From NCBI GenBank assembly GCA_910585165.1, contig CAJUBX010000001.1, positions 6,247 to 70,246 on the forward strand: a stretch of DNA of 64,000 nt, in the 5' to 3' direction. The translations under genes and the position numbers were made by a program. This DNA comes from an uncultured Oscillibacter sp. (GTDB lineage Bacteria > Bacillota > Clostridia > Oscillospirales > Oscillospiraceae). Below, piece by piece: positions 2,060 through 64,000 of this stretch; the stretch's first letter is position 1; every line of letters begins with the position of its first letter. A model generated the notes under the pieces. The model did not search any database and was not told where the DNA came from. It worked only from the letters and a program-made list of their open reading frames with translations.

Positions 2060-2064
2060 AGGGA

Positions 2065-2290
2065 AAGGGCTTTCGCCAATAGGCGAAAGCCCTTCAGGCT
2101 GTTGAGAAACCTGTAAGAGTTGTTCAACAGGAAGGAAGGGTGTAGGGCGGGAAACCCAGGAAGGGTTTCCTGCACTATTGAAATCCTAAATTTTCAGAAC
2201 TTTTTGAAGTTCTGAAAATTTGTAGCAGCTTGTTGAAAAGACTTTTTCGACAAGCTGAGGGCTTTCACCAATTGGTGAAAGCCCTTTCTT
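2065..2290. terminator. Cluster of four consecutive hairpins between convergent genes
   Basis: gggctttcgcc-aatag-gcgaaagccc (2067-2092), ggaaaccc-agga-agggtttcc, an AT-rich palindrome around 2185-2222 plus cagcttgt..acaagctg, and gggctttcacca-at-tggtgaaagccc (2258-2285). The first and last hairpins are near-copies of each other. Confidence 0.4.
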
Positions 2291-3197: not shown

Positions 3198-4073
3198 TTA
3201 TTGCTCGTCACTGTAAAGGTGAATATCTTGCAGGGTAAATACGCCGCCCCCGTAGCGGACTTTGGCGGAGGTTTCCGCCACGTAGTGGGGAATTGAGCTG
3301 TCCTCGCGGCACAGGGCGAAGGCCCCCCAGAAGGAAAGGGACTCTCCGTCCAAGGAAAAATTTGCGATTAAGCCGGAGGAGGGGGCTGCTTCCAGGTCCA
3401 GGCCCTCGCCGTCGATTTCAACCAGCTCATGGCCCAAAACGGCAAAGGTCCGCCCATTGACCTGCGCCATGTCGAACAGCCCGGGGAGTTGTTCCCGCCA
3501 GAGGCTTTCCGGGAAGGTGTACACCGTCAGAGCCCCGTCCAGGCTTTTTTCCAGAATATGCAGTTCGTCCAGAGAAACCCCGGTGCCGCCGCCCACATGG
3601 CAGATCACGACCAGCTCGTCCTCCTGATCGCCGTCAATATCAATGCAGTCTATCCAGGGCAGGACGATGTTGGGACCGGGAGAAAATATCCAGTCAAATT
3701 CTGCCAGGCAGTCTCCCCAGCGAATCAGGACCTTTTCCACGCCCTCCTCCTCCCAGGGCAGGCCGTAAAAAGCGGCATCCTCCTCAGGAACCTCCGCCAG
3801 CAGGCTGAACATTCCCTCGTAGGCCCATTTCTGCATGTTTCCCCAATAATCCGGATGTTCCTGAGAAGGCGGCAGCTTGTAATTCTCCGCCGGAGCCCGG
3901 CCCTCCGTCACAATGGCGGGGGCGGAAATGGGCTTCAGCGGGCGGGTCTCCGGCAGGGTGAAGCTCGCCTCCGCGGGAGGCACCTCCGGCAAGACCTCCG
4001 GCTCCTCTGGGGCGGGCGCGCCGCAGCCTGTCAGGATCAGCAGAAGAAGCGGGAAAAAGAAACGCTTTTTCAT
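3198..4073 (-). CDS. Lipoprotein, paralog A
   Basis: Signal peptide with lipobox MKKRFFFPLLLLILTGC. Shares N- and C-terminal blocks with the next gene. Confidence 0.75.
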   Translation of the reverse strand: MKKRFFFPLLLLILTGCGAPAPEEPEVLPEVPPAEASFTLPETRPLKPISAPAIVTEGRAPAENYKLPPSQEHPDYWGNMQKWAYEGMFSLLAEVPEEDAAFYGLPWEEEGVEKVLIRWGDCLAEFDWIFSPGPNIVLPWIDCIDIDGDQEDELVVICHVGGGTGVSLDELHILEKSLDGALTVYTFPESLWREQLPGLFDMAQVNGRTFAVLGHELVEIDGEGLDLEAAPSSGLIANFSLDGESLSFWGAFALCREDSSIPHYVAETSAKVRYGGGVFTLQDIHLYSDEQ

Positions 4074-4085
4074 ATGGATATCTCC

Positions 4086-4952
4086 CTATTGGTCGTAACT
4101 GTAAAGGTGAAAGTCCCGCAGGGTAAATATGCCGTCCTGATAGAGGACTTTGGCGGAGGTCCAGGCAGCACGAAGGGGAATCGGGTAGGATTGATAGGTT
4201 AAACAGAATGCGCCCTCGAATCGAAGACCGTCCCATTGCTCCTTGCAGAATGAAGCGAACAGGCCGGAGGAGGGGGCTTCTTCCAGGTCCAGGTCCTCGC
4301 CGTCGATTTCAACCAGCTCATGTCCCAGAACGGCAAAGGTCCGTCCGCTGACTTGCGCCGTGTCGAACAGCCTGGGGAGCTGTTCCCGCCAGAGGCTTTC
4401 CGGGAAGGCGTACGCCGTCAGGGTTCCGTCCGGGTTTTTCTCCAGAATGTGCAGCTCATAAAAAGAAGTGTTTGTCCCGCTGCCAACGTAGCACACAATG
4501 ATGAGCTCGTTTTCCCCGTCGCCGTCCGCATCGAAGCAGTCCATCCAGGGGGGAATCCGCCGGGGCGTAAGGTAGAGCCAATCGAATTCCGCCATACAGT
4601 TGTCCCAGGAAACCAAGACGGTTTCGCCGCCTTCCAGAGCATAAAACGCCGCATTTGCCGGCGGCAGCTCCGCCAGCAGGGCCGGAGACGGGCCAAAGTC
4701 CAAACCAAAATCAAGTTCAGGGTTGTCCAAGTCATACAGTGTTTGGGGAAGCTCATATTTTTCTGCCGGAACCCGGCCCTGCGTCACGATGGCGGGGGCG
4801 GAGATGGGCTCCAGGGGACGGGTCTCCGGCAGAGCTGCGCTCTCCGCCGCGGGAGGCTCCTCCGGCAAGACCTCCGGCTCCTCTGGGGCAGGCGCGCCGC
4901 AGCCGCTCAAAAGTGACAGGGCCAGAAGCAGGGAAAGCGTTCTTTTTTTCAT
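4086..4952 (-). CDS. Lipoprotein, paralog B
   Basis: Start taken at MKKRTLSLLLALSLLSGC (lipobox), with RBS GAGAGG upstream. Paralogous to 3198-4073. Confidence 0.75.
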   Translation of the reverse strand: MKKRTLSLLLALSLLSGCGAPAPEEPEVLPEEPPAAESAALPETRPLEPISAPAIVTQGRVPAEKYELPQTLYDLDNPELDFGLDFGPSPALLAELPPANAAFYALEGGETVLVSWDNCMAEFDWLYLTPRRIPPWMDCFDADGDGENELIIVCYVGSGTNTSFYELHILEKNPDGTLTAYAFPESLWREQLPRLFDTAQVSGRTFAVLGHELVEIDGEDLDLEEAPSSGLFASFCKEQWDGLRFEGAFCLTYQSYPIPLRAAWTSAKVLYQDGIFTLRDFHLYSYDQ

Positions 4953-4960
4953 ACGGCCTC

Positions 4961-5743
4961 TCAGTCCCACCAGAAATACCACTTGTCAGACTTTGCCAGG
5001 GTGTCCGCCAGATATCCCACGGTTCCGCAGCCCTGGTCCACGATGTCCGGGCAGAAGGCGTATTGTTCCAGAGCCAGGGCCATGGCCTCCTCCCGCCGCA
5101 CCGGGGCGGGGAGATCGTATTCCAATACGTCCCGGGTAATCACCGCCGGGACGGCCCCATACTTCTCATACCAATATTTTGCGGCCGCCATTTGCTCCTC
5201 GTTGCAGGGGCACTCGTTCCAGCCTCCGAAGGGGACGTAAGCGAAGACCTCCCAGGGGTTCTTCACCGGGATTTCCGCCAGCGCCAGGGGAATGGTCTTC
5301 CCATGAAAATCGGAGATGCCCAGGAAGCGGTCCACGGTCTCGCCGCCCGCCATTTCGCCGAGGACCTCCTGGTCGGGCCAGTTGAAGCCGTCCTCTGCGT
5401 AGTCCTCCTTACGCTGGTCGGCCATGCGGCGAAGGAGAGCGCCGCCGTCCTCCACCGCCAGGGAGAGAAGCCTTTGCCGGAACGCCTCCGGCGTTTCGCT
5501 CCCCGGCCATTCGAACCCTTCCAGAGGGGAATCCTCTCCAACGGCGACGAGGACGGGGACAAAGTCCGCCGGGGATGCCTGGGTTTTCGCGAAAAGCCGC
5601 CGGAGGATTCCCGTCTGCGGGGAGGTATTTCGCCCCGCCCGCCTCCGGGCTTCCCGGTAGGCGGTGAGGATAGGGGAGGGGTTTTCCATAGGCGGAAATT
5701 CCTTACAGGGGCAGTTCAAAACAGCCGTTTGTTTCTCATACAT
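4961..5743 (-). CDS. DUF4253 domain protein
   Basis: 260 aa. The C-terminal part FAYVPFGGWNECP...YFWWD is typical of DUF4253. Confidence 0.7.
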   Translation of the reverse strand: MYEKQTAVLNCPCKEFPPMENPSPILTAYREARRRAGRNTSPQTGILRRLFAKTQASPADFVPVLVAVGEDSPLEGFEWPGSETPEAFRQRLLSLAVEDGGALLRRMADQRKEDYAEDGFNWPDQEVLGEMAGGETVDRFLGISDFHGKTIPLALAEIPVKNPWEVFAYVPFGGWNECPCNEEQMAAAKYWYEKYGAVPAVITRDVLEYDLPAPVRREEAMALALEQYAFCPDIVDQGCGTVGYLADTLAKSDKWYFWWD

Positions 5744-7161: not shown

Positions 7162-8151
7162 ATGACTTCAAGGCAGGCGGGGCGGCGGCTGATGAAGGCG
7201 CGGGCGCGGCGGAGCGTTCGGAGCGCCCGCGGCAGAACCCGGAAAAGCGAGCCCTTGGCGGCAAAGGATTTGCGGCTGATGCTGCGGCTGGTGGCCTGCG
7301 GCGGCATTTTCGTGGCGCTGGTGGCGGCGAAGCTGCTGCTCCCGGCGAAAATGGCGGGCTTCAATGAAAAGCTCTCCGCCGCTATGGAGCGGAATATGGA
7401 TGTTCAGGCGGTATTTTCCGCTGTGGGCCGGGCCTTCTCCGGGGAGCAGGGAGTGGCGGAGGTCTACCAGGCGGTTTTCCAGCCCCAGACGGAAGCCGTT
7501 CAAACCGGAACCGCCGCCTTCCCGGGAGGAGAAGCCCCTTCCGCCTCCGAACAGGAAAATTCCCTGAAAAACGGGACCGTCCGAAGGCCGAAAATCCAGG
7601 ACGGCGCGGCGCTGGAGACCCTGCGCGGTTACCGGGCGGAATCCGGCGCCTCGAAAGAGCCTGAAGCGCCAGAGACCCGGCCGGCTTCCAATTTGGCCTA
7701 TGTCCTCTACTCCCAGGAGAATCTTCCCGAAGGGGTCAGCATGGAGCAGGCCATGTTGGGCTTTGACTACTGCGCCCCGGTGCCCGGGACGGTCAGCTCC
7801 GACTTTGGATACCGGGAACACCCAACGGAGGGGGAGGAGCGGTTTCACTACGGCGTGGACCTGGCGGCGGACACAGGGACGGAGGTGCGCTGTTTTGCCG
7901 ACGGCACCGTTACCGCCGTAGGGGACAGCAGCAGCTACGGCCGCTACTGCATTGTAGCCCACGAGGGAGGCTATTCCACACTCTATGCCCATTGCAGCCG
8001 GATCACGGCTTCTTCCGGCGAGGCGGTAAATCGGGGACAGAAAATCGCCGAGGTGGGGGAGACGGGGATGGCCACCGGGCCCCACCTCCACTTTGAGCTC
8101 CAGAGGGACGGAACCTACCTGAACCCCATTTATTATGTTTCCGCCCTGTAA
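7162..8151 (+). CDS. M23 family metallopeptidase with an N-terminal TM anchor (SpoIVFA-position gene)
   Basis: C-terminal LytM domain with intact HYGVD (HxxxD) and GPHLHFE (HxH). The second ATG has better spacing to GGAGGAG. Confidence 0.85.
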   Translation: MTSRQAGRRLMKARARRSVRSARGRTRKSEPLAAKDLRLMLRLVACGGIFVALVAAKLLLPAKMAGFNEKLSAAMERNMDVQAVFSAVGRAFSGEQGVAEVYQAVFQPQTEAVQTGTAAFPGGEAPSASEQENSLKNGTVRRPKIQDGAALETLRGYRAESGASKEPEAPETRPASNLAYVLYSQENLPEGVSMEQAMLGFDYCAPVPGTVSSDFGYREHPTEGEERFHYGVDLAADTGTEVRCFADGTVTAVGDSSSYGRYCIVAHEGGYSTLYAHCSRITASSGEAVNRGQKIAEVGETGMATGPHLHFELQRDGTYLNPIYYVSAL

Positions 8152-8728
8152 AATCCATGTTAGCGGAGGTTTTGCCGTTCTTGCCCTTTGGTTCGCTCTG
8201 GTCAACGGATGGGAACCCCTGGCCACGGTGCTGGGGGCCGCCGCCGTCCACGAGCTGGGACACTGGGCTTTGCTCCGGGGACAGGGGGCGAAGGTGAGGA
8301 GCGTTCGACTTGGCGTTCTGGGTGCGGTGATGGAAGCGGACAGCGGGCGGCTGACCTATGGCGGGGAACTGGCGGCAGCGCTGGCGGGCCCCGCCGCCAA
8401 CCTTCTGGCGGCGCTGGCTTTGACGGCCCTGGGCGGAAGCCGCTGGCCCGCCGCCGTGGGGGCGAACCTGGTTTTGTGCATATTCAACCTCCTGCCCATC
8501 CGGCCCCTGGACGGAGGCCGGGCCCTGTATCTGCTGGCCTCCTGGGCGAGAGGACCCGGGGCGGGGGAGGCGGCGGCACGCTGGGCGGGAACTGCGGCGG
8601 CTCTGGCTCTGGCGGCGGCGCTGGGGGGTGTAATGTGGGGGACGGGAGGAAGCCTGTGGCTGCTGCCCGCGCTGCTGGCCAGCGTCTATTGGGGCCTCTT
8701 GCCCTGGTTTCCCGGTTCATGCGAATAA
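8135..8728 (+). CDS. M50 family site-2 protease (short SpoIVFB-like, no CBS domain)
   Basis: HELGHW zinc motif and NLLPIRPLDGG motif, multi-TM. Overlaps the M23 gene by 17 nt. Confidence 0.8.
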   Translation: MFPPCKIHVSGGFAVLALWFALVNGWEPLATVLGAAAVHELGHWALLRGQGAKVRSVRLGVLGAVMEADSGRLTYGGELAAALAGPAANLLAALALTALGGSRWPAAVGANLVLCIFNLLPIRPLDGGRALYLLASWARGPGAGEAAARWAGTAAALALAAALGGVMWGTGGSLWLLPALLASVYWGLLPWFPGSCE

Positions 8729-8764: not shown

Positions 8765-9208
8765 TCAGCCGGCCAGACGCTGGGACAGCTGTTCCAAAAT
8801 ATAGTCTCCCAGGTCCTTCCGCTCGGACTCCGCGTCCGCCTGGGCGGCCTGCAGGCTGGCATAGGCGCGGGCGGTCTTTTCCACGTCGGCCTCCTCCCGC
8901 AGGGATTCGATCCAGGCGTCCAGAGCCTTCATTATGCGGTCCCAGTCCTCCTGTTCCTCCTTTTTCTCCTTGCTCAGCTTCATCCGATCCAGCATGGTGC
9001 GCTGAACTCCGGACAAGGCGGTGAGAAGGCTGTCCTTCATAAAGGCTTCCCGGCCGGGAGAAGCGGCTGCCTTTTGGGCGCTTTGGGCCTTGGCGGCGCT
9101 TTGGACAAGCTGCTCCTGGAAGGAGGAACCGGCGGGTTCGCCCCGCCGGGCTGCGGGGCGGCGGTTTTCCGTGGGGGCCTGGGCGTTTGTCAGGGATGAA
9201 ATGCTCAT
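8765..9208 (-). CDS. Hypothetical coiled-coil protein
   Basis: Start moved to MSISSLTN so the gene does not overlap rny. No family recognised. Confidence 0.5.
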   Translation of the reverse strand: MSISSLTNAQAPTENRRPAARRGEPAGSSFQEQLVQSAAKAQSAQKAAASPGREAFMKDSLLTALSGVQRTMLDRMKLSKEKKEEQEDWDRIMKALDAWIESLREEADVEKTARAYASLQAAQADAESERKDLGDYILEQLSQRLAG

Positions 9209-9329
9209 TTTGCGGCGCTTCCTTTCGTTTTCATATGATAGGTAAAAAGCAGAAAGCGGCTGTGAAGGTGTATCACGGCCGCTTTCTGTTCCCTGCGTTG
9301 TGTCCCTCCGCAGTCCGTTGCGGAGGAGA

Positions 9330-10895
9330 TTATTTTGCGTATTCGACGACTTTGGTTTCCCGGAGGACATGGACCTTGATTTGACCGGGGTACTCCATTT
9401 CCTCCTCAATCTTCTTGGCAAGATCCCGGGCCAGAATGACCATCTGATCCTCAGATACCTGCTCGGGCTTCACCATGACGCGGACCTCCCGGCCCGCCTG
9501 AATGGCGAAGGCCTTGTCCACGCCGGGATAGGAGCCGGTGATGGTCTCCAGCTGCTCCAGGCGCTTAATGTAGTTCTCCAGGTTTTCACGGCGGGCGCCG
9601 GGCCGGGCGGCGGAAATGGCGTCTGCGGCCTGAACCAGGCAGGCGACGATGGTCCTGGGCTCCACATCGTTGTGGTGGGCCTCGATGGCGTGAATAATGT
9701 CCTCTTTCTCCTTGTACTTCCGGGCAAACTCCACGCCCAGGGCCACATGGGTGCCCTCCATCTCGTGGTCCACGGACTTGCCGAGGTCGTGGAGCAGGCC
9801 CGCCCGTTTGGCGGCCTGAACGTCCACACCCAGCTCCGCCGCCATCATGCCGGCGATGTGGCTGACTTCCACGGAGTGCTGGAGAACGTTCTGGCCGTAA
9901 CTGGTGCGGTAATGGAGGCGGCCCAGCATCTTCACCAACTCCGGGTGGAGGCTGCGGATGCCGCACTCGAAGGTGACCCGCTCGCCCTCAGCTTTGATGG
10001 TGGCGTCCACCTCCCGGCGGGCCTTTTCCACCATTTCCTCAATATGGGTGGGGTGGATGCGCCCGTCGGAAATCAGCTTTTCCAGGGCCAGTCGGGCAAT
10101 TTCCCGGCGCACCGGCTCAAAGCAGGAGACGGTGATGGCCTCCGGCGTATCGTCGATGATAAGGTCCACGCCTGTCAGGGTTTCGATGGTGCGGATGTTC
10201 CGGCCTTCCCGGCCGATGATACGGCCCTTCATCTCGTCATTGGGCAGGGGAACCACACTGACGGTCATATCGGCCACCTGATCGGCGGCACAGCGCTGGA
10301 TAGCCTGGGCTACGATCTCCCGGGCCCGGGCGTCGCACTCCTCCTTCATCCGGGACTCCACCTCTTTGATTTTCAAGGCGGTCTCGTGGGTGACTTCCGC
10401 TTCCACCTGGTCGATGAGGTACTGCTTCGCCTCCTCGGTAGTGAAGCCGGAGATGCGCTCCAGCATTTCGGTCTGGCCGCGCTTAACAAGTTTGATTTCC
10501 TCGGTTTCCTTGTCGATGGCGGCGTGCTTTTGAGTCAGGGACTCCTCTTTTTTCTCCACGGCCTCGATCTTGCGGTCGAGGTTTTCCTCCTTTTGCTGCA
10601 GGCGGTTTTCCTGCCGCTGAAGGTCGGCGCGGCGTTCCTTGACTTCCTTTTCGTACTCGCTGCGGTTTTTTAAGATCTCCTCTTTGGCTTCCAGCAGGGC
10701 CTCGCGCTTTTTGGATTCGGCGCTTTTGATGGCCTCGTTGACGATGCGCGTTCCCTCTTGCTCGGCGCTGGAGATTTCTTTTTCAGAGACGTTCTTCCGG
10801 TAGCGAATACCAAGCGGGAAGCAAATCACGCCGCCGGCCACCAACCCGATTAAGAGGGTGATGATGATCTGAATCACGGCTGCTGATTCCTCCAT
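9330..10895 (-). CDS. rny: Ribonuclease Y
   Basis: 521 aa. N-terminal TM, coiled coil, KH domain ([12 protein letters not shown]), HD domain (HDLGK...HH). Confidence 0.95.
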
Positions 10896-48019: not shown

Positions 48020-48208
48020 TCACTTGTAGCTCCAGCGGCCGACCTTGTTGCCGTTCACATCCATGACGGGACCGTCGGTACGCCCAGCCTCCAGCTCACA
48101 GATGACATCCAACAGAATACGGCGCACCTCCGTGGTGTAGGGGTCCAGGCCCTCTCCATTATCATCCCGGAACACCGCTCCGACGGTCTTGATTTCCAGC
48201 TTGAACAT
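48020..48208 (-). CDS. Hypothetical small protein (62 aa)
   Basis: ATG after GAGAGGTGA. Confidence 0.5.
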   Translation of the reverse strand: MFKLEIKTVGAVFRDDNGEGLDPYTTEVRRILLDVICELEAGRTDGPVMDVNGNKVGRWSYK

Positions 48209-49911: not shown

Positions 49912-50600
49912 CAGATTGCCTCCTTGCGGCCCTGGGCGTGGGCGGCGGCCTGCACAGCCGCCACCCTGCCCAACAGGTTCCGACAATACTCGGCGGTTCT
50001 GGAGTGGTCCCTGTGCTGCTTAACTGCGTTCTGGAACTCCTTCCCGGTCGGATCGTCAGCATACTTCACGATTTCAGCGGCAGCCTTCCCAGCCAGCTCA
50101 TCCGCTTCGGTGGCCCGGTCACTTGCGAGCTGGCGGAGGTCTTCCAGGTCATCGGGACTCAGGACCATGGCTTCCAGCTTCTTGATGAACTCCTGTGCCT
50201 CATCCCTTGCCCGCTGCCTCTCGGCGATTTCCTGTCGGAGTTTTTCTTGCAGCTCCTTGACCTGGGATTCCAGGCTCTCGGCCCTGCCCTTCATGCTGTC
50301 CCCGAAGTCATTCTCGATGTTCTGCTCAGCATCCTCGAAGCACCCCTGGAAGGCGGTGGCGAGGTAGCTCTGCGGGCCCAACTCCTCGACCATCTTCCTG
50401 ATGGCCGCCAGCGTGTCCCGTTCCTGCTGCTTGGTGGCGCAGGTGTTCTCATGGTGAAGCTCAATGTTGGTGACCGTGAAGCCGAGACCCTTGTTCATGG
50501 AGGTGAAAAACTTGCGAGCAGCGGCCTCGGTGCGCTCTGTAATGATGGAATCGAAGCTGTCCCCGGCCTCGGTGGTGTAGGTGATTCTGTAATCGTTCAT
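49911..50600 (-). CDS. Hypothetical coiled-coil protein (229 aa), first gene of the P2 array
   Basis: ATG after GAAGGAGGA, 50 nt downstream of the P2 -10 box. Confidence 0.6.
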   Translation of the reverse strand: MNDYRITYTTEAGDSFDSIITERTEAAARKFFTSMNKGLGFTVTNIELHHENTCATKQQERDTLAAIRKMVEELGPQSYLATAFQGCFEDAEQNIENDFGDSMKGRAESLESQVKELQEKLRQEIAERQRARDEAQEFIKKLEAMVLSPDDLEDLRQLASDRATEADELAGKAAAEIVKYADDPTGKEFQNAVKQHRDHSRTAEYCRNLLGRVAAVQAAAHAQGRKEAI

Positions 50601-50655
50601 GGTGCATCCTCCTTCAAAAACTGACCGTCTTGGATAAGTTATTTATCATGCTCAC

Positions 50656-50684
50656 ATTCTAACTTACCGACACGGTAATGTCAA
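50656..50684 (-). promoter_or_regulatory. Promoter P2 with embedded palindromic operator
   Basis: Minus strand TTGACA-17 nt-TAGAAT. The spacer contains the palindrome TTACCGtgtCGGTAA (50664-50678). 39 nt (50655-50693) are identical to 57233-57271. Confidence 0.7.
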
Positions 50685-50794
50685 GTCAAAAATGAAAAAT
50701 AGCAAAATATTTTTTGCTATCCTCAAAACGCTTGATTTCCAGCACTTTTGAAGGAGCTGCGTGGCTTTTTCAGAAAATACGCACAGCTTCGCAA

Positions 50795-57220: not shown

Positions 57221-57233
57221 TTTCAGTGTCATC

Positions 57234-57262
57234 ATTCTAACTTACCGACACGGTAATGTCAA
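57234..57262 (-). promoter_or_regulatory. Promoter P1 with embedded palindromic operator
   Basis: Minus strand TTGACA-17 nt-TAGAAT, with TTACCGtgtCGGTAA (57242-57256) in the spacer. Identical to P2. Confidence 0.7.
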
Positions 57263-57351
57263 GTCAAAAATTGATTTTTTTCAAAATATTTTTCTCAATC
57301 AACTTATGGCTTTATTTCCACTATTTCTAATGTATATTGCCAATTTTGAGC

Positions 57352-60862: not shown

Positions 60863-61044
60863 TACCCCTCACCGCCTTCCAGCAACTCGTACACATCGCA
60901 GAGAGCCATCTGCGTGTCGGTGAGCTGCCCCTCCAGGCTCTCGACCTTGGCCCGGAGCTGCTCGTTCTCCTCCTGGAGCTGCTTCCGGGTCTTTTCCTTC
61001 TGCTTCTCTTTCACAGAATCCTTCCTGATTACATTCAGTCCCAT
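60862..61044 (-). CDS. Small coiled-coil protein (60 aa)
   Basis: ATG after AGGGAGG, overlapping the stop of the fibre gene. Confidence 0.5.
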   Translation of the reverse strand: MGLNVIRKDSVKEKQKEKTRKQLQEENEQLRAKVESLEGQLTDTQMALCDVYELLEGGEG

Positions 61045-62915
61045 TACTGGAAACCTCCCTGCACAGAATTGATGTAGCCGCCCTCACCGCTGGCCCCGCG
61101 CTCTGCCGTCACTCGGAAGTTGAACGCAAAGCCGTTGGCGGCGGTCTTGTTCTCAAAGATGTGGTTCGCACCGCTCTTCACCTCAGCGGTACAGTCCTCC
61201 CATACCGGGGCGTCATCCTTGGCGTTGTTCGTGACCTCCACCGTATAGCGGGCATCCGCCGGGATGAAGCCGGCCACGGACAGGACGCAGATGGTGATGA
61301 GTGCGTCCGCCTCCATCGGGGCCTCCAGCGTAACAGAAGCCCCGGTGACTTCCTTCTTGAAAGTCATGGAGTGAACGGTGCTGGCCTTCCCGTCATTGGC
61401 GGTGATGGTCATGGTATGGTCGCCGTTCAGCAGCTTCATGAAATACTCGCCGTTGACCTTGAAGCTGTTGGAAGTGCCCAGGGCCGCCGTGAAGGTTCGC
61501 TTCGTCACACCGTCGATAGCCTCGGTGACGGAGACCTCATCGCCGTCCACGTCGGACACGGTATAGGACACCGTGAAGCCGGCATCCTTCGTCCCCAGGT
61601 TGCTCCCACTTGGAGAAGTGCAGGCAATCTCCGGGGCCGTGTTGTTGTTCACCGGACGGGACGGCGAGGTCGTATAGCCGCTGTACGCATTGTTGCTGTC
61701 ATAGGCGCGGACCCGATACTTCACGCTGGCCCAGCCCTTCGTGATGGTATCGGTATAGCTCAGGGTGTTGCCGGTGTAGACCACCCCCCACTGGCCGCTG
61801 CCGTCCACCTCCCGTTCCAGGCTGTACCCGGCCAGGTTCCCGTCCACGTCGCTGGCCGCGCCCCAGGTCACGGTAAGCGTCGCGCCGCCCAACACGGTAT
61901 TCGGGACCGTGATACTGGGCGGCGCGGTGGGCGCGTTGTTATTCGTGACCGTTACCTGGTTGCTGGTCTTGTAGGCCGAGGACAGCCCCTCGCTGTCATA
62001 GGCTTTTACCCGGTACATCACGCTGGCGGTGCCAAAAGCCACCGTGTTGGTCGTACTCCGGCTGCTGCCCTGGTACACCTGGGACCAGGATTTTCCGCCG
62101 TCGGTGCTGCGCTCCAGGATGTACCCCTCCAGGTTGCTCTCCTTGTCGGTGCTGGCACCCCAGCTCACGGTGATCGTGCTGCCGCCCTGGATGCTGCTGG
62201 GGACGGAGATGCTGCTGGGCGCTGTCGGAGCCGTGTTCGTGTTTACGGAGCCGTCGTCAGAGACCAAGAGAGAAGAGGGAAGTACCAAAGCCGGGCGAAT
62301 GGCATACCCACCGCCGGAGCAGTAGCTGCTGCTCCAGTCGCCATTCGCGCGGACGCGCAACGCGCGCGTCGCGCCGCCGCCGGAGCTGCAGCACGGAGAA
62401 CGGAGCCACCAGTCGGCGGCCGAACCATTCAGGTTGGCTATACGCTTGCTGTCGGTCGTGGCACAGCCGGAGAAGTAAGCCAGACACGCACCATCATTCG
62501 GGATATAGGAGTGCGTACTCGAAGTCCAGTTCACTTCCGGGCCGGACAGCAGGAACACCTTGGCCGAGAGGCCATTGGCGCCGCTGTTGATGGGCGTGGG
62601 ATTCGCACCGCTGCCGGGGCGGTACGGGAGCTTCACCTGCTTAATCTGATTTCGGATGTTGGCGTCGATCAGGTTCAGGAACGTGTTGTTCAGGTAGCTG
62701 TTGATTTCGCTGTTGGCATAATCGTTGACGTTGCTGCTATGCCACCTTTTGGCCTCATAGCAGTCTTTCATCAACAGCCAGGTTCCATCGCAGCTCGCGT
62801 CATACAGAGCCGAGGGCTTCCCCTGGTGGACCACAATGAAGTCCCGCAGAGTGCCGTTGACCTTCAGCTTCACGATACTGCCGATGGTTTTGTTGCTAAG
62901 GGCAACCGATGCCAT
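61044..62915 (-). CDS. Tail-fibre/receptor-binding-like protein: N-terminal lectin-like (WWLRSP...IRPAL) domain, two FN3 repeats, Ig-like C-terminal region
   Basis: Start at MASVAL after AGGAGG. Two copies of APTAPxSIxVP...WGA(S/A)xD...GY.LER...YRV(K/R)AYD, which are FN3 repeats. Confidence 0.8.
   Translation of the reverse strand: MASVALSNKTIGSIVKLKVNGTLRDFIVVHQGKPSALYDASCDGTWLLMKDCYEAKRWHSSNVNDYANSEINSYLNNTFLNLIDANIRNQIKQVKLPYRPGSGANPTPINSGANGLSAKVFLLSGPEVNWTSSTHSYIPNDGACLAYFSGCATTDSKRIANLNGSAADWWLRSPCCSSGGGATRALRVRANGDWSSSYCSGGGYAIRPALVLPSSLLVSDDGSVNTNTAPTAPSSISVPSSIQGGSTITVSWGASTDKESNLEGYILERSTDGGKSWSQVYQGSSRSTTNTVAFGTASVMYRVKAYDSEGLSSAYKTSNQVTVTNNNAPTAPPSITVPNTVLGGATLTVTWGAASDVDGNLAGYSLEREVDGSGQWGVVYTGNTLSYTDTITKGWASVKYRVRAYDSNNAYSGYTTSPSRPVNNNTAPEIACTSPSGSNLGTKDAGFTVSYTVSDVDGDEVSVTEAIDGVTKRTFTAALGTSNSFKVNGEYFMKLLNGDHTMTITANDGKASTVHSMTFKKEVTGASVTLEAPMEADALITICVLSVAGFIPADARYTVEVTNNAKDDAPVWEDCTAEVKSGANHIFENKTAANGFAFNFRVTAERGASGEGGYINSVQGGFQ
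62286..62411 (-). other. Candidate DGR variable region (VR) inside the fibre gene
   Basis: Codons for WWLRSPCCSSGGGATRALRVRANGDWSSSYCSGGGYAIRPAL. Runs of NNC codons (TGC TGC AGC TCC GGC GGC GGC ... AGC AGC AGC TAC TGC TCC GGC). The segment is adenine-poor. Confidence 0.5.
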
Positions 62916-62937
62916 GATAAAACCTCCTGTTGAAAAT

Positions 62938-64000
62938 CTACATCCACGGCGGTACGTCGTCAGGCAGCGGGACAGAGCGGAGCGGGGCCGCCTGGGGCAG
63001 CTCCTCACCTCTCTTCCTGCGGATACACCGCGCCTGCTTCAACCTCCGCTTTATGCGGACCACATTGGTCGAGTTGATTTTCCGGCGCGGCTTGATTTCC
63101 TCCCCGATAATCTCACTCACCTGGGCAGCGTACTTTTGCCGTAATGCGTATGTGTCACCGTGGGCCGCATGAGCGTCCCACCCGCCGAAGCCTTTGATGA
63201 TGGCTTCTTTCGTCACTTTCCCCGCCGGGTACGCCTCCCTCCAATACTTCACCCTGGCGTTGATGTCCTGGACCTTATCCCGGCGGAGCTTTTGGACCAC
63301 CGCGCCGGTCTCGGTCAGGTAGGAGTGGAAGCCGAGGAAGTCGATACCGTTCCTCAGCGGGAAAATCCCAGTCTTTTCGTTCAGCTCCAGGCGGAGGTCA
63401 TCCATCCACCGCTCCACATCCTGCAGGAGCTCCTGTAGCTCTTTCTTGGTCCGCGCTATGATGTAGAAGTCATCCATGTAGCGGCCATAATAACGAAAGC
63501 CTCGCACTTCCTGGACGTAGTGGTCGAACTCATCCAGGAATAGCAAGGCCAATAACTGGCTGGTCTGATAGCCCAGGGGCAGGCCGTCCGTCTTGTCAAT
63601 GTAGATGCACAGCAGGTCATAGAAGGCCATGTCTACACCGCGCTTCAGGAACAGGGCCCGCAGCTTGGCTTTCAGTATGTTGTGGTCTATCGAAGCAAAG
63701 AACTTTCTTACATCGCATTTCAGGACCCAGCCATCAGCCGATCCTGTCCGGCGATAATACTCGGCCATGTGCTGCTTCAGGCGCATAAGGCCGTCGTGAG
63801 TTCCCTTCCCCTTCTGGCTGGCATGATTGTCCCGGATGAAGCTGTGCGTGATTGCATCGTACAGCACGTTATCCGTGGCAGCATGGAGCACCACCTTGTC
63901 TACAAAAGCTGGTGCTTGAACGAGCCTTTTCTTGGGCTCGTAAACAAAGAAGGTCTCAAAATTACTGGGGGCGTAGGTCCTATTCAGCAGTTTTCTGGAC
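62938..64000 (-). CDS. DGR-type reverse transcriptase (5' end outside the window)
   Basis: The reading frame stays open to position 64000. Motifs FVYEPKKRLVQAPAFVDKVVLHA, LKCDVRKFFASIDH, GLPLGYQTSQLL (SQ in place of QG), YGRYMDDF, GIDFLGF. Confidence 0.85.
   Translation of the reverse strand, partial: SRKLLNRTYAPSNFETFFVYEPKKRLVQAPAFVDKVVLHAATDNVLYDAITHSFIRDNHASQKGKGTHDGLMRLKQHMAEYYRRTGSADGWVLKCDVRKFFASIDHNILKAKLRALFLKRGVDMAFYDLLCIYIDKTDGLPLGYQTSQLLALLFLDEFDHYVQEVRGFRYYGRYMDDFYIIARTKKELQELLQDVERWMDDLRLELNEKTGIFPLRNGIDFLGFHSYLTETGAVVQKLRRDKVQDINARVKYWREAYPAGKVTKEAIIKGFGGWDAHAAHGDTYALRQKYAAQVSEIIGEEIKPRRKINSTNVVRIKRRLKQARCIRRKRGEELPQAAPLRSVPLPDDVPPWM

What the first reader, a model, noticed from the sequence alone, without database searches (positions are those of the whole stretch)
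61044..64000. Diversity-generating retroelement with atypical layout: RT directly upstream of a fibre gene whose candidate VR is internal
**RT evidence**
- The partial RT has the DGR hallmarks: GLPLGYQTSQ with SQ replacing the usual QG, YMDD, and an N-terminal EPKKR...DKVVLHA.

**Candidate VR evidence**
- 22 nt downstream of the RT starts a 623-aa fibre-like gene.
- Its N-terminal lectin-like domain contains a 126-nt, adenine-poor stretch (62286-62411).
- That stretch is rich in NNC codons encoding C, S, G, A, T, Y and R. This is what adenine mutagenesis of AAC-rich template codons would produce.
- The stretch is framed by the invariant scaffold WWLRSP...IRPAL.

**What is unusual or missing**
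- The order is RT then target, rather than target-avd-TR-RT.
- The VR sits about 410 codons from the C-terminus instead of at the extreme C-terminus.
- No template repeat (TR) or Avd-like gene is present in the window. I looked for a VR-like copy in the phage intergenic regions and found none.
Basis: partly seen in the sequence, partly recalled or inferred. Interest (0 to 1): 0.8.

Follow-up and report, generated by a model that had tools for sequence, protein, structure and literature searches.

The report
Phage DGR diversifying a tentaclin adhesin
This is a genuine, complete diversity-generating retroelement in a gut-bacterial prophage that rewrites the tip of a lectin-like virion adhesin, but this gene layout and target type ("tentaclin") have already been described in Faecalibacterium and other gut phages, so it is a new member of a known kind.

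Summary
All genes are on the minus strand.

The window ends inside the RT gene. The same sequence occurs on a 127-kb MAG contig (L001, 100% identical over 12,957 nt), which supplies the missing parts:
- A 138-nt template repeat (TR) lies 365-502 nt beyond the window end.
- An Avd gene sits just upstream of the TR.

The TR differs from the VR (window 62286-62423) at 21 positions. Nineteen of these are TR adenines (P = 2e-13).

Thirteen natural variants of the target differ almost only at the adenine-containing codons, so the element is active in nature.

The order avd-TR-RT-target is not new. An internal VR at the C-terminal edge of an N-terminal DUF6273 (lectin-like) domain is not new either. 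Together they are the published "tentaclin" DGR type:
- FP_Brigit, Cornuault 2018.
- Baykov 2023.
- Faecalibacterium prophages, 2024.
- The Toutatisvirus hotspot.

The same TR-RT-VR order appears in more than 100 related loci.

The TR-flanking RNA has the same duplex architecture as the Bordetella phage DGR RNA, with strong covariation.

Still unresolved: where the protein sits on the virion, and whether there is a second remote target like the one I found in FP_Brigit gp06.

The parts
62938..64000 (-). DGR reverse transcriptase gene, 3' 1063 nt (codons 44-396 plus stop). The first 43 codons lie beyond the window end, at window-equivalent 64001-64128.
   Evidence: Pfam RVT_1 at E = 5.5e-20. 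The full 396-aa gene was called on L001 8788-9978. PHROG 1423 'Reverse transcriptase' matches at E = 4e-120. The best PDB relative is 8ub7_A (E = 1e-24), which carries I181/G182/Q187/D215/D216 as named for Bordetella bRT. A group II intron RT scores only 4e-12.
63556..63576 (-). RT motif LGYQTSQ, the DGR-type [LIV]GxxxSQ
   Evidence: Read from the sequence. It aligns with bRT I181-G182-S-L-T-S-Q187.
63469..63480 (-). RT catalytic motif YMDD
   Evidence: Read from the sequence. It aligns with bRT Y213-M-D215-D216.
62916..62937 (-). 22-nt RT-target intergenic spacer with ribosome-binding site AGGAGG (62923-62928)
   Evidence: Read from the sequence.
61044..62915 (-). DGR target gene, 623 aa, tentaclin family: N-terminal DUF6273/lectin-like domain, three FN3-like domains and a C-terminal beta domain
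   Evidence: Gene call and exact-protein look-up. tblastn gives 66% identity over the full length to FP_Brigit 'Hoc-like head decoration', 42.5% to nd4 target1 and 37.7% to nd12 target1. AF2 model, mean pLDDT 84.
62274..62789 (-). DUF6273 domain (aa 43-214), the variable-ligand-binding scaffold
   Evidence: Pfam PF19789 at E = 6.7e-31. The domain model has pLDDT 86.5 and pTM 0.88. Foldseek matches phage DUF6273 proteins (E down to 1.6e-29, TM 0.93) and the DUF6273-bearing IgA peptidase 9qa6 (E = 3.7e-6). C-type lectins match only weakly (E 0.2-1).
62286..62423 (-). Variable repeat (VR), 138 nt, aa 165-210
   Evidence: 85% identical to the TR at L001 8414-8551. There are 21 mismatches; 19 are at TR adenines, of 31 adenines (hypergeometric P = 2.4e-13), and 2 are silent C>T. 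In 13 natural variants, every column with 3 or more residues is an adenine-containing TR codon.
62286..62290 (-). 3' end of the VR (CTTTG) that differs from the TR (CTCTG) at 62288. This IMH/IMH*-like marker lies in the part of the TR predicted not to be copied.
   Evidence: The same TR GCTCTG / VR GCTTTG difference recurs in most of 100 related loci (89 C>T events) and in both VRs of FP_Brigit. The TR copy lies inside the TR:spacer duplex H4.
61353..62234 (-). Three tandem FN3/Ig-like beta-sandwich domains (aa about 228-521)
   Evidence: AF2 secondary structure and pLDDT 80-95. Foldseek top hits are titin and contactin FN3 tandems, E down to 5e-15.
61047..61352 (-). C-terminal beta domain (aa about 522-623), the proposed virion-anchoring domain
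   Evidence: Homology to Brigit, nd4 and nd12 tentaclins and to Mushu Hoc-like proteins reaches the last residues. PHROG 10993 covers aa 322-623. Model confidence is low here (pLDDT 40-76). The anchoring role is a hypothesis of PMC10743442, not tested.

Best explanation
**What it is.** The region is the 3' two-thirds of a complete diversity-generating retroelement in a myovirus-like prophage, probably of an Oscillospiraceae gut bacterium.

**Gene order.** On the coding strand the order is:
- baseplate and tail-fibre genes;
- avd (195 aa);
- TR (138 nt);
- a 236-nt structured spacer;
- RT (396 aa);
- the target gene, with the VR at codons 165-210;
- the lysis genes.

**Proposed mechanism** (steps marked shown or inferred):
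1. An RNA running from the end of avd to the RT start folds so that the spacer forms two adjacent duplexes. One is with the 3' end of the TR (CUCUGAU with AUCAAAG). The other is a 12-bp duplex with the segment just upstream of the TR. The pairing is shown by covariation.
2. By analogy with the Bordetella phage RNP, the first duplex is the template:primer duplex and the second is the cis-primed reverse transcription stop (the 'cPRT Stop' of Handa et al.). The RT-Avd complex then cis-primes cDNA synthesis at about TR position 133-134 and stops about 4 nt before the upstream duplex. This would copy almost exactly the 138-nt repeat (inferred).
3. The RT misincorporates opposite template adenines. 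The signature of this is shown.
4. The cDNA replaces the VR in the target gene. The result is shown; the mechanism is unknown.

**What is diversified.**
- Nineteen codons can vary: 11 AAC, 1 AAT and 7 codons with a single A.
- None of them can become a stop codon.
- This allows about 10^18 protein variants.
- The variable residues lie on a beta-hairpin and flanking loops at the C-terminal edge of the N-terminal DUF6273/C-type-lectin-like domain.
- The invariant scaffold residues WWLRSP, C, G, W and IRPAL are encoded by adenine-free codons.

**The target protein.** It is a tentaclin: a variable lectin head on a stalk of three FN3 domains, probably held on the virion by its C-terminal domain. 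This would let the phage retune what it sticks to.

**Where it sits.** I favour a baseplate/tail-associated receptor-binding role, about 55%, because the gene lies between the tail-fibre genes and the lysis genes. A capsid-decoration role is the alternative.
For: **Flank recovery**
- The protein is found on L001, which is 100% identical to the window over 12,957 nt.

**TR/VR pair**
- The pair was found by repeat search.
- 19 of 21 mismatches are at TR adenines (P = 2.4e-13). The VR is in frame, and the AAC-rich TR cannot yield stop codons.

**Avd**
- PHROG 3206 'Avd protein of DGR', E = 3e-29.
- 9 of 21 positional homologues hit NCBIfam DivGenRetAVD, with E down to 4e-12.

**RT**
- It carries the LGYQTSQ and YMDD motifs.
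- Its closest solved structure is the Bordetella bRT, 8ub7, E = 1e-24.

**Activity in nature**
- 13 full-length members of the 90%-identity cluster were compared. Mean column entropy is 0.74 inside the VR and 0.036 outside it.
- All 15 columns with 3 or more residues are adenine-containing TR codons. All adenine-free VR codons are invariant.
- In strain L202, 15 of the 17 VR nucleotide differences are at TR-adenine positions.

**Clade-wide pattern**
- Across 100 related loci, 1490 of 1658 TR>VR mismatches are A>N, and the order is always TR-RT-VR.

**RNA structure**
- The test used 15 diverse loci.
- 96.7% of cells are paired, against 34-47% when partners are slid.
- 30 pairs show compensatory changes.
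- 0 of 500 shuffles reach the observed values.
- Helix H1 has compensatory changes at 8 of its 12 pairs.
- The same two adjacent duplexes are seen by cryo-EM in the Bordetella phage RNP (bioRxiv 10.1101/2023.10.23.563531).

**Target fold and family**; PMC10743442.

**Synteny**: FP_Brigit has the same order, Avd gp58 - RT gp59 - Hoc-like gp60 - lysis.
Against: - There are no read-level data for this sample, so current activity in this particular lysogen is not shown.
- Two of the 21 mismatches are not at adenines. One is the conserved 3' marker. The other (CGC>CGT, 62400) is a private silent change.
- No hairpin or cruciform follows the VR, unlike in the Bordetella phage (z = +1.7).
- Neither a profile of the Avd family nor the single sequence reaches the solved Avd in PDB. 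The single protein is below the NCBIfam Avd cut-off.
- The priming nucleotide and the cDNA ends are inferred by analogy, not measured.
- The position of the protein on the virion is unknown.
Confidence: 0.95

Rival explanations
1. The element is a real DGR, but its target is a capsid decoration protein (Hoc-like) rather than a tail or baseplate receptor-binding protein. On this reading the DGR tunes adherence of virions to mucus, host glycans or immunoglobulins (the 'bacteriophage adherence to mucus' idea), not host range.
For: - PHROG 10993 'Hoc-like head decoration' matches at E = 2.5e-204. The RefSeq annotation of FP_Brigit gp60 says the same.
- The protein has tandem Ig/FN3 domains as in T4 Hoc.
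- Cornuault 2018 proposed this for Brigit and Mushu (PMC5883640).
- The only solved DUF6273 domain belongs to a gut-bacterial IgA peptidase.
Against: - The 'Hoc-like' label rests on shared Ig-like repeats only.
- According to PMC10743442, T4 Hoc has no N-terminal lectin domain and a different anchoring domain.
- The gene lies after the baseplate and tail-fibre genes and directly before the lysis cassette. That is the usual place of tail fibres, not of head genes.
- No experiment has localised any tentaclin.
Confidence: 0.35
2. The cassette is a DGR relic that no longer mutagenises in this lineage. The TR/VR differences would be fossil traces, and the variation among metagenomic relatives would be old.
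For: - There are two non-adenine mismatches between the TR and the VR.
- No hairpin follows the VR.
- No read-level evidence is available.
- The bioRxiv hotspot paper notes phages that keep the targets but have lost the DGR.
Against: - The RT, avd, TR and spacer are intact, with catalytic YMDD.
- The spacer RNA helices are maintained by compensatory changes.
- Near-identical phages are 95-98% identical over the protein. They carry 4-8 different residues at each AAC-templated codon, while adenine-free codons are invariant.
- Both non-adenine mismatches are explained. One lies outside the predicted copied segment and is conserved across the clade. The other is a single silent change.
Confidence: 0.05
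3. The RT is not a DGR enzyme but a group II intron, retron or defence RT, sitting next to an unrelated structural gene. The adenine-poor stretch would then be compositional chance.
For: NCBIfam has no DGR RT model. The best NCBIfam hits, all far below their cut-offs, are group II intron RT and Drt3a.
Against: - A TR with adenine-specific mismatches exists (P = 2e-13).
- Avd is present.
- The DGR-type GxxxSQ motif is present, and the best solved relative is the Bordetella DGR RT.
- There is no intron RNA, retron ncRNA or any other Rfam family.
Confidence: 0.01

Closest known systems
Faecalibacterium phage FP_Brigit DGR (Brigitvirus brigit, NC_047909.1; Cornuault et al. 2018, PMC5883640)
   Same: - The gene order is the same: baseplate/tail fibre - Avd (gp58) - TR - RT (gp59) - 'Hoc-like' DUF6273 target (gp60) - small genes - lysis.
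- The RT is 73% identical and the target is 66% identical over its full length.
- The VR sits at the same place in the protein.
- The 3' marker is the same: TR GCTCTG against VR GCTTTG.
   Different: - There is no nucleotide-level match (megablast found none), so this is a different phage species or genus.
- The host is probably Oscillospiraceae (Oscillibacter-like) rather than F. prausnitzii.
- The endolysin is different (amidase_2/SH3 rather than M15).
- In Brigit I found a second, shorter VR in gp06. No second VR was found within reach for this phage.
Tentaclin-type DGR targets of gut phages nd4 and nd12 (Baykov et al. 2023, PMC10743442)
   Same: - The protein topology is the same: N-terminal DUF6273/C-lec domain carrying the VR on a beta-hairpin, three Ig-like domains and a conserved C-terminal Ig-like domain.
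[quoted passage not shown]
- The target lies directly downstream of the RT.
- tblastn gives 42.5% (nd4) and 37.7% (nd12) identity over 82-87% of the protein.
   Different: - nd4 and nd12 are small myoviruses that are only distantly related.
- Their cassettes include a second target (a small DUF6273 protein with a C-terminal VR), which is not seen here within 8.4 kb upstream or 55 kb downstream of the TR.
Toutatisvirus DGR hotspot and Faecalibacterium prophages Roos, Pioen, Lelie and CP11 (bioRxiv 10.1101/2024.10.15.618418; PMC11792537)
   Same: - The TR lies between Avd and the RT.
[quoted passage not shown] - Activity was shown by adenine-linked variation among cognate genomes and reads.
   Different: - Target identity is lower (about 53% over 69-70% of the protein).
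- Those phages have a second VR 17.5 kb upstream of the TR.
Bordetella phage BPP-1 DGR (prototype: mtd-avd-TR-brt)
   Same: - The RT belongs to the same clade (E = 1e-24 to bRT, with the same I/L-G-x-x-x-S-Q and YMDD motifs).
- There is an Avd partner.
- The signature is adenine-specific.
- The spacer RNA forms a TR:spacer duplex directly followed by an upstream-segment:spacer duplex, then a stem-loop, a conserved A-rich single strand and a long stem-loop.
- The last nucleotides of the TR differ from those of the VR.
   Different: - The gene order is avd-TR-RT-target instead of target-avd-TR-RT.
- The VR is internal (413 codons from the C-terminus), in a DUF6273 domain rather than at the C-terminus of Mtd.
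- Avd is 195 aa, with an insertion of about 35 aa.
- The upstream strand of the stop duplex lies in the avd-TR intergenic region rather than in the avd coding sequence.
- No hairpin follows the VR.

Membership tests
Diversity-generating retroelement (DGR) | Reverse transcriptase of the DGR clade, with the [LIV]GxxxSQ motif in place of QGxxxSP and with catalytic YxDD | tested here: met
   LGYQTSQ and YMDD are read in the sequence. The best PDB relative is Bordetella bRT 8ub7 at E = 1e-24, against 4e-12 for a group II intron RT.
Diversity-generating retroelement (DGR) | A TR/VR repeat pair whose differences fall at adenines of the TR, with the VR inside a protein-coding gene | tested here: met
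   The pair is 138 nt long. 19 of 21 mismatches are at TR adenines (P = 2.4e-13), and the VR is in frame in the 623-aa gene. The TR lies outside the window, at window-equivalent 64365-64502.
Diversity-generating retroelement (DGR) | Accessory variability determinant (Avd) gene next to the TR/RT | tested here: met
   PHROG 3206 'Avd protein of DGR' matches at E = 3e-29. Nine of 21 positional homologues hit NCBIfam DivGenRetAVD. The single protein is below the NCBIfam cut-off (E = 0.039). There is no sequence match to the solved Avd.
Diversity-generating retroelement (DGR) | Cis-acting RNA around the TR: a TR:spacer template-primer duplex adjacent to an upstream-segment:spacer duplex (cPRT Stop) | tested here: met
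   Helices H4 (6 bp) and H1 (12 bp; 8 pairs with compensatory changes) are adjacent in the spacer. 0 of 500 shuffles reach the observed values, and 96.7% of cells pair against 34-47% when partners are slid. Their function is inferred from bioRxiv 10.1101/2023.10.23.563531.
Diversity-generating retroelement (DGR) | Ongoing adenine-directed hypervariation of the VR in populations | tested here: met
   In 13 natural variants, variation is confined to adenine-containing TR codons. In strain L202, 15 of 17 VR differences are at TR-adenine positions. Within-sample read heterogeneity is not testable with these tools.
Diversity-generating retroelement (DGR) | A target-recognition element at the 3' end of the VR: IMH differing from IMH*, plus a downstream hairpin or cruciform as in BPP-1 | tested here: inconclusive
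   A conserved single C/T difference at the 3' end (TR GCTCTG, VR GCTTTG) is present here and across the clade. No stable hairpin lies downstream of the VR.
Diversity-generating retroelement (DGR) | VR displayed on a C-type-lectin-fold (or Ig-fold) scaffold | tested here: inconclusive
Tentaclins (Baykov et al. 2023) | N-terminal C-lec/DUF6273 domain with the VR on a surface beta-hairpin | tested here: met
   DUF6273 covers aa 43-214. The variable residues 168-201 span strands 184-188 and 194-198 and the flanking loops of the model.
Tentaclins (Baykov et al. 2023) | One to four Ig-like domains after the lectin domain | tested here: met
   There are three beta-sandwich domains at aa about 228-521. 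Foldseek hits FN3 tandems.
Tentaclins (Baykov et al. 2023) | C-terminal Ig-like domain with the family's seven-residue consensus (the proposed virion anchor) | tested here: inconclusive
   Homology to nd4, nd12, Brigit and Mushu proteins runs to residues 611-623. The published consensus is given only in a figure and could not be checked. Model confidence is low here.
Tentaclins (Baykov et al. 2023) | Gene is part of a DGR cassette | tested here: met
   The gene lies directly downstream of the RT and carries the VR.
T4 Hoc-like head decoration proteins (database label) | Capsid-binding C-terminal domain and location on the capsid surface | not testable with these tools
   The label comes from PHROG 10993 and RefSeq. 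Only the Ig-like repeats are shared. PMC10743442 reports a different anchoring domain and no lectin domain in T4 Hoc.

The most novel reading that the evidence does not exclude
This phage's single TR may also feed a second, remote VR in a small DUF6273-like protein encoded in the early/lysogeny region.

**Basis.** I found exactly this in its closest described relative, FP_Brigit. There, gp06 carries an 80-nt VR with adenine-specific mismatches, and the gp06 family is hypervariable in metagenomes at exactly these codons. I found no paper in the library that mentions it.

**What it would mean.** The DGR would diversify a virion adhesin and also a non-structural protein, possibly expressed by the lysogen. 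That would point to a role beyond host-range switching, for example surface recognition or exclusion by the lysogen.

**Why it is not excluded.** The region where such a gene would lie is more than 8.4 kb upstream of the TR, at the far end of the prophage. The tools could not reach it.
Probability: 0.35. Interest if true: 0.5.

Novelty: new member of a known kind. Interest (0 to 1): 0.25.

Why it matters
- It shows that a tool-free reader can call a DGR correctly from the RT motifs and an adenine-depleted, NNC-rich stretch, even when the TR and Avd lie outside the window.
- Biologically, it adds one more prophage, probably of Oscillospiraceae, to the large gut-phage clade whose DGRs diversify tentaclins.
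- The clade-wide comparison done here gives covariation support for the Bordetella-type DGR RNA architecture in Bacillota phages.
- It also gives a simple explanation for the conserved non-adenine TR/VR mismatch at the 3' end: that position lies in the template:primer duplex and is not copied.
- None of this changes current understanding of DGRs.
- The open questions are what tentaclins bind and where they sit on the virion.

Tried and rejected
1. **Searches inside the window for a TR or a second VR.** I used the repeat finder, a TR pattern with N at the adenines and up to 3 mismatches, and blastn, tblastn of the TR peptide and tblastn of the DUF6273 domain. Only the VR itself was found. A 34-nt hit at 48024-48057 (E = 0.01, no ORF) was taken as chance.
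2. **Exact A>N pattern scans.** Scans of viral contigs, metagenome contigs and genome contigs each returned 0. The pattern was too strict, or the collections do not hold this lineage. They were replaced by RT-anchored search for related loci.
3. **Megablast of the cassette against GenBank phages** gave no match.
4. **Walking upstream to look for a second VR.**
   - A search with the tape-measure C-terminal fragment returned only 50-63% identical fragments.
   - IMG/VR loci found with the Dit-like protein showed no second VR within -10 kb.
   - A search with Brigit gp06 returned only Brigit-type VR2 sequences, none matching this TR.
   - The question stays open.
5. **Rfam** on the TR/spacer and on the whole window found nothing. 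No tRNA was found.
6. **A BPP-1-like hairpin after the VR** was not found.
7. **Avd against PDB**, by sequence and by profile, gave no significant hit.
8. **Foldseek with the full-length model** was dominated by FN3 tandems. A separate model of the N-terminal domain was therefore made.

Full report
**1. What is in the window**

All relevant genes are on the minus strand.
- The ORF at 62938-64000 runs off the window end. It is a reverse transcriptase (Pfam RVT_1, E = 5.5e-20).
- Its stop codon is at 62938-62940.
- Twenty-two nucleotides later, after an AGGAGG site, a 623-aa gene starts at 62915 and ends at 61044.
- Residues 43-214 of that gene match Pfam DUF6273 (E = 6.7e-31).
- The adenine-poor stretch is real. 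It has 12 A in 138 nt, against 22.7% in the rest of the gene. It is the lowest-A window of the gene. Only 0.6% of such windows in the 64 kb are as poor.
- No TR-like copy and no Avd gene lie within the window.

**2. The missing parts lie just beyond the window end**

An exact look-up of the 623-aa protein found it on five contigs. Locus L001 comes from MAG GCA_948787235.1, contig CAQFIQ010000001.1 (127 kb). It is identical to the window over the whole 12,957-nt overlap. The mapping is: L001 position = 10001 + (62915 - window position).

On L001 the RT is complete (396 aa, 8788-9978). Upstream of it lies a 420-nt non-coding stretch, and upstream of that a 195-aa gene (7781-8368).

A repeat search found one strong direct repeat. 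L001 8414-8551 pairs with 10493-10630 at 85% identity over 138 nt.
- The upstream copy would be at window-equivalent 64365-64502.
- There are 21 mismatches. Nineteen are at adenines of the upstream copy, which has 31 adenines (hypergeometric P = 2.4e-13).
- The other two are silent C>T changes.

The upstream copy is therefore the TR.

**3. Avd and RT class**

Avd:
- The 195-aa protein hits PHROG 3206 'Avd protein of DGR' (E = 3e-29).
- On its own it is only a weak hit to NCBIfam DivGenRetAVD (E = 0.039).
- I aligned it with the proteins at the same position in 20 related loci. Nine of the 21 aligned proteins hit that model, with E down to 4e-12.
- The long versions differ from the short ones by an insertion of about 35 residues.
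- No sequence-level match to the solved Avd was obtained.

RT:
- Its best solved relative is 8ub7_A (E = 1e-24). A group II intron RT scores 4e-12.
- That chain has I181, G182, Q187, D215 and D216. These are the residues Handa et al. name for Bordetella bRT, so I take it to be bRT.
- Our LGYQTSQ aligns with its IGSLTSQ.

**4. The element is active in nature**

The target's 90%-identity cluster has 79 members. I aligned thirteen full-length ones, 93-98% identical to ours.
- Mean column entropy is 0.74 inside the VR and 0.036 outside it.
- All 15 columns with three or more residues lie at aa 168-201. Each corresponds to a TR codon that contains an adenine.
- Every adenine-free VR codon is invariant.
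- AAC-templated positions carry 4-8 different residues.

At the nucleotide level, strain L202 differs from ours at 17 VR positions. Fifteen of these are at TR adenines. One of the other two matches a TR polymorphism seen in a sister contig.

The TR allows about 10^18 protein variants and cannot create a stop codon.

**5. The layout is the rule for this clade and is already published**

Searching genomes and metagenomes with the RT gave 158 loci.
- My blastn scan found the TR 220-380 nt upstream of the RT, and the VR 1.7-2.1 kb downstream of the TR, in more than 100 loci whose RTs are 38% or more identical.
- RTs below about 35% identity show the classical VR-upstream order.
- Across 100 loci, 1490 of 1658 TR>VR mismatches are A>N.

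Hosts named in the records are Oscillospiraceae, Oscillibacter, Faecalibacterium, Acutalibacter, Flavonifractor and others. The closest relatives, with RT 88% identical, are mouse-gut Oscillospiraceae MAGs.

The literature describes this type explicitly:
- Cornuault et al. 2018 reported DGRs with 'Hoc-like' targets in FP_Brigit and FP_Mushu (PMC5883640).
- Baykov et al. 2023 named the target family tentaclins: an N-terminal DUF6273/C-lec domain with the VR on a beta-hairpin, one to four Ig-like domains and a conserved C-terminal Ig-like domain. [quoted passage not shown]
- The 2024 Faecalibacterium prophage study found VRs 'mapping to the C-terminus of DUF6273' and showed activity (PMC11792537).
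- A 2024 preprint describes Avd-TR-RT followed by the Hoc-like DUF6273 target in Toutatisvirus.

By tblastn our protein is 66% identical to FP_Brigit gp60 over its full length, and 42.5% and 37.7% identical to nd4 and nd12 target1. FP_Brigit has the same order: tail fibre - Avd - RT - target - lysis. At the nucleotide level nothing in GenBank phages matches, so this is a distinct phage.

**6. Structure of the target**
- The AF2 model has mean pLDDT 84.
- The N-terminal domain (aa 1-220) has pLDDT mostly above 90. Three beta-sandwich domains follow at aa about 228-521, then a low-confidence C-terminal domain.
- The full model matches FN3 tandems of titin and contactins.
- A separate model of aa 1-225 has pLDDT 86.5 and pTM 0.88.
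- That domain model matches phage DUF6273 proteins (E down to 1.6e-29, TM 0.93).
- It also matches the DUF6273-bearing N-terminal domain of the Thomasclavelia ramosa IgA peptidase, 9qa6 (E = 3.7e-6).
- C-type lectins (CD23, MBP) appear only at E 0.2-1, so I could not confirm the lectin fold independently.
- The variable residues span strands 184-188 and 194-198 and the adjoining loops. This agrees with the published beta-hairpin.

**7. How reverse transcription is probably organised**

The avd-stop to RT-start region folds better than shuffles (z = -2.9). It has no Rfam match. An alignment of 15 diverse loci gave a consensus structure.

Statistical support:
- 96.7% of cells are paired, against 34-47% when partners are slid.
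- 30 pairs show compensatory changes.
- 0 of 500 shuffles reach the observed values.

The elements in L001 coordinates:
- H1: AGGGTGCGACTC (8399-8410, just upstream of the TR) pairs with GAGTCGCATCCT (8613-8624). This helix has 12 bp, and 8 of them show compensatory changes.
- H4: the TR 3' end CTCTGAT (8547-8553) pairs with ATCAAAG (8605-8611), one nucleotide before the H1 strand.
- A hairpin lies between the TR and H4 (H5/H6).
- A stem-loop follows H1 (H7/H8).
- Next comes the conserved single strand GATAAATACATCAT.
- Last is a long stem-loop (H9/H10).

This matches the cryo-EM description of the Bordetella phage RNP. That description has a TR:Sp template:primer duplex, two nucleotides, an avd:Sp 'cPRT Stop' duplex, a stem-loop with adenosines, a single-stranded 'Thumb Ring' and a long bRT-binding stem-loop. 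The authors predicted similar elements in 207 other DGRs.

Inferences by analogy:
- cDNA synthesis starts at about 8546 and ends a few nucleotides before 8410. This fits the repeat boundaries of 8414-8551.
- It also explains one of the two non-adenine mismatches. TR C8549 (VR T, window 62288) lies inside H4, 3' of the predicted start, so it is never copied.
- The same difference, TR GCTCTG against VR GCTTTG, recurs in most related loci and in both VRs of FP_Brigit.
- No hairpin follows the VR.

**8. A second target?**

Several relatives have two VRs.
- In FP_Brigit I found an 80-nt second VR in gp06 (NC_047909.1 4373-4452). Seven of its 9 mismatches are at TR adenines, and it carries the same 3' marker. 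gp06 is a small protein with a weak DUF6273 match (E = 0.064) in the early/lysogeny region.
- Its homologues are hypervariable at exactly those codons.
- For the present phage, no second VR exists from 8.4 kb upstream of the TR to 55 kb downstream.
- The far end of the prophage could not be reached.

**9. Verdict**

It is a further member of a described DGR/target type rather than a new layout. The remaining uncertainties are the ligand of the protein, its place on the virion, and a possible second target.

Noticed in passing
window 50655-50693 and 57233-57271: A 39-nt perfect direct repeat. Read on the minus strand it is TTGACA, a 17-nt spacer and TAGAAT, with the palindrome TTACCGtgtCGGTAA inside the spacer. 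The copies lie 55-70 nt upstream of minus-strand genes that start at 50600 and 57162. They look like two copies of one promoter/operator in the post-lysis part of the prophage.
   Followed up: partly
window 3198-4073 (-) and 4086-4982 (-): Two tandem paralogous lipoprotein genes (291 and 298 aa, signal peptide with a lipobox Cys). The repeat segments found between them are 76-85% identical. They are probably host genes outside the prophage.
   Followed up: partly
FP_Brigit NC_047909.1 4373-4452 (L201), gene gp06 at 3948-4559: A second, shorter VR (80 nt) matching the 3' part of the Brigit TR. Seven of 9 mismatches are at TR adenines, and it has the same GCTCTG/GCTTTG end marker. It lies in a small protein with a weak DUF6273 match (E = 0.064) in the early/lysogeny region. 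gp06 homologues in metagenomes are hypervariable at exactly these codons. I found no paper in the library that mentions it.
   Followed up: partly
L001 7781-8368 (window-equivalent 64548-65135): The Avd of this clade is long (195-232 aa) because of an insertion of about 35 residues relative to the 131-160-aa Avds next to more distant RTs. This may be why Cornuault 2018 found no Avd in Brigit and why the NCBIfam model misses it.
   Followed up: partly
L001 about 8373-8398 (window-equivalent about 64518-64543): A conserved hairpin immediately after the avd stop and upstream of helix H1. Compensatory changes are visible across the 15 aligned loci. It has no named counterpart in the Bordetella phage RNA description and was not quantified.
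   Followed up: no
window 2063-2093 and 2258-2288: A 31-nt inverted repeat, 90% complementary, with arms 164 nt apart, just downstream of a 132-aa ORF. Each arm is itself palindromic (GAAAGGGCTTTC...).
   Followed up: no
protein search: Dozens of single-member clusters sit at 87-88% identity to the target. Hypervariable VRs appear to push otherwise near-identical proteins below the 90% clustering threshold. This inflates apparent family diversity.
   Followed up: no
L034 21131-21207 (Coriobacteriaceae MAG SFGZ01000016.1): This distant relative (RT 39% identical) has a second VR about 11 kb downstream of its RT. All 17 of its mismatches are at TR adenines.
   Followed up: no
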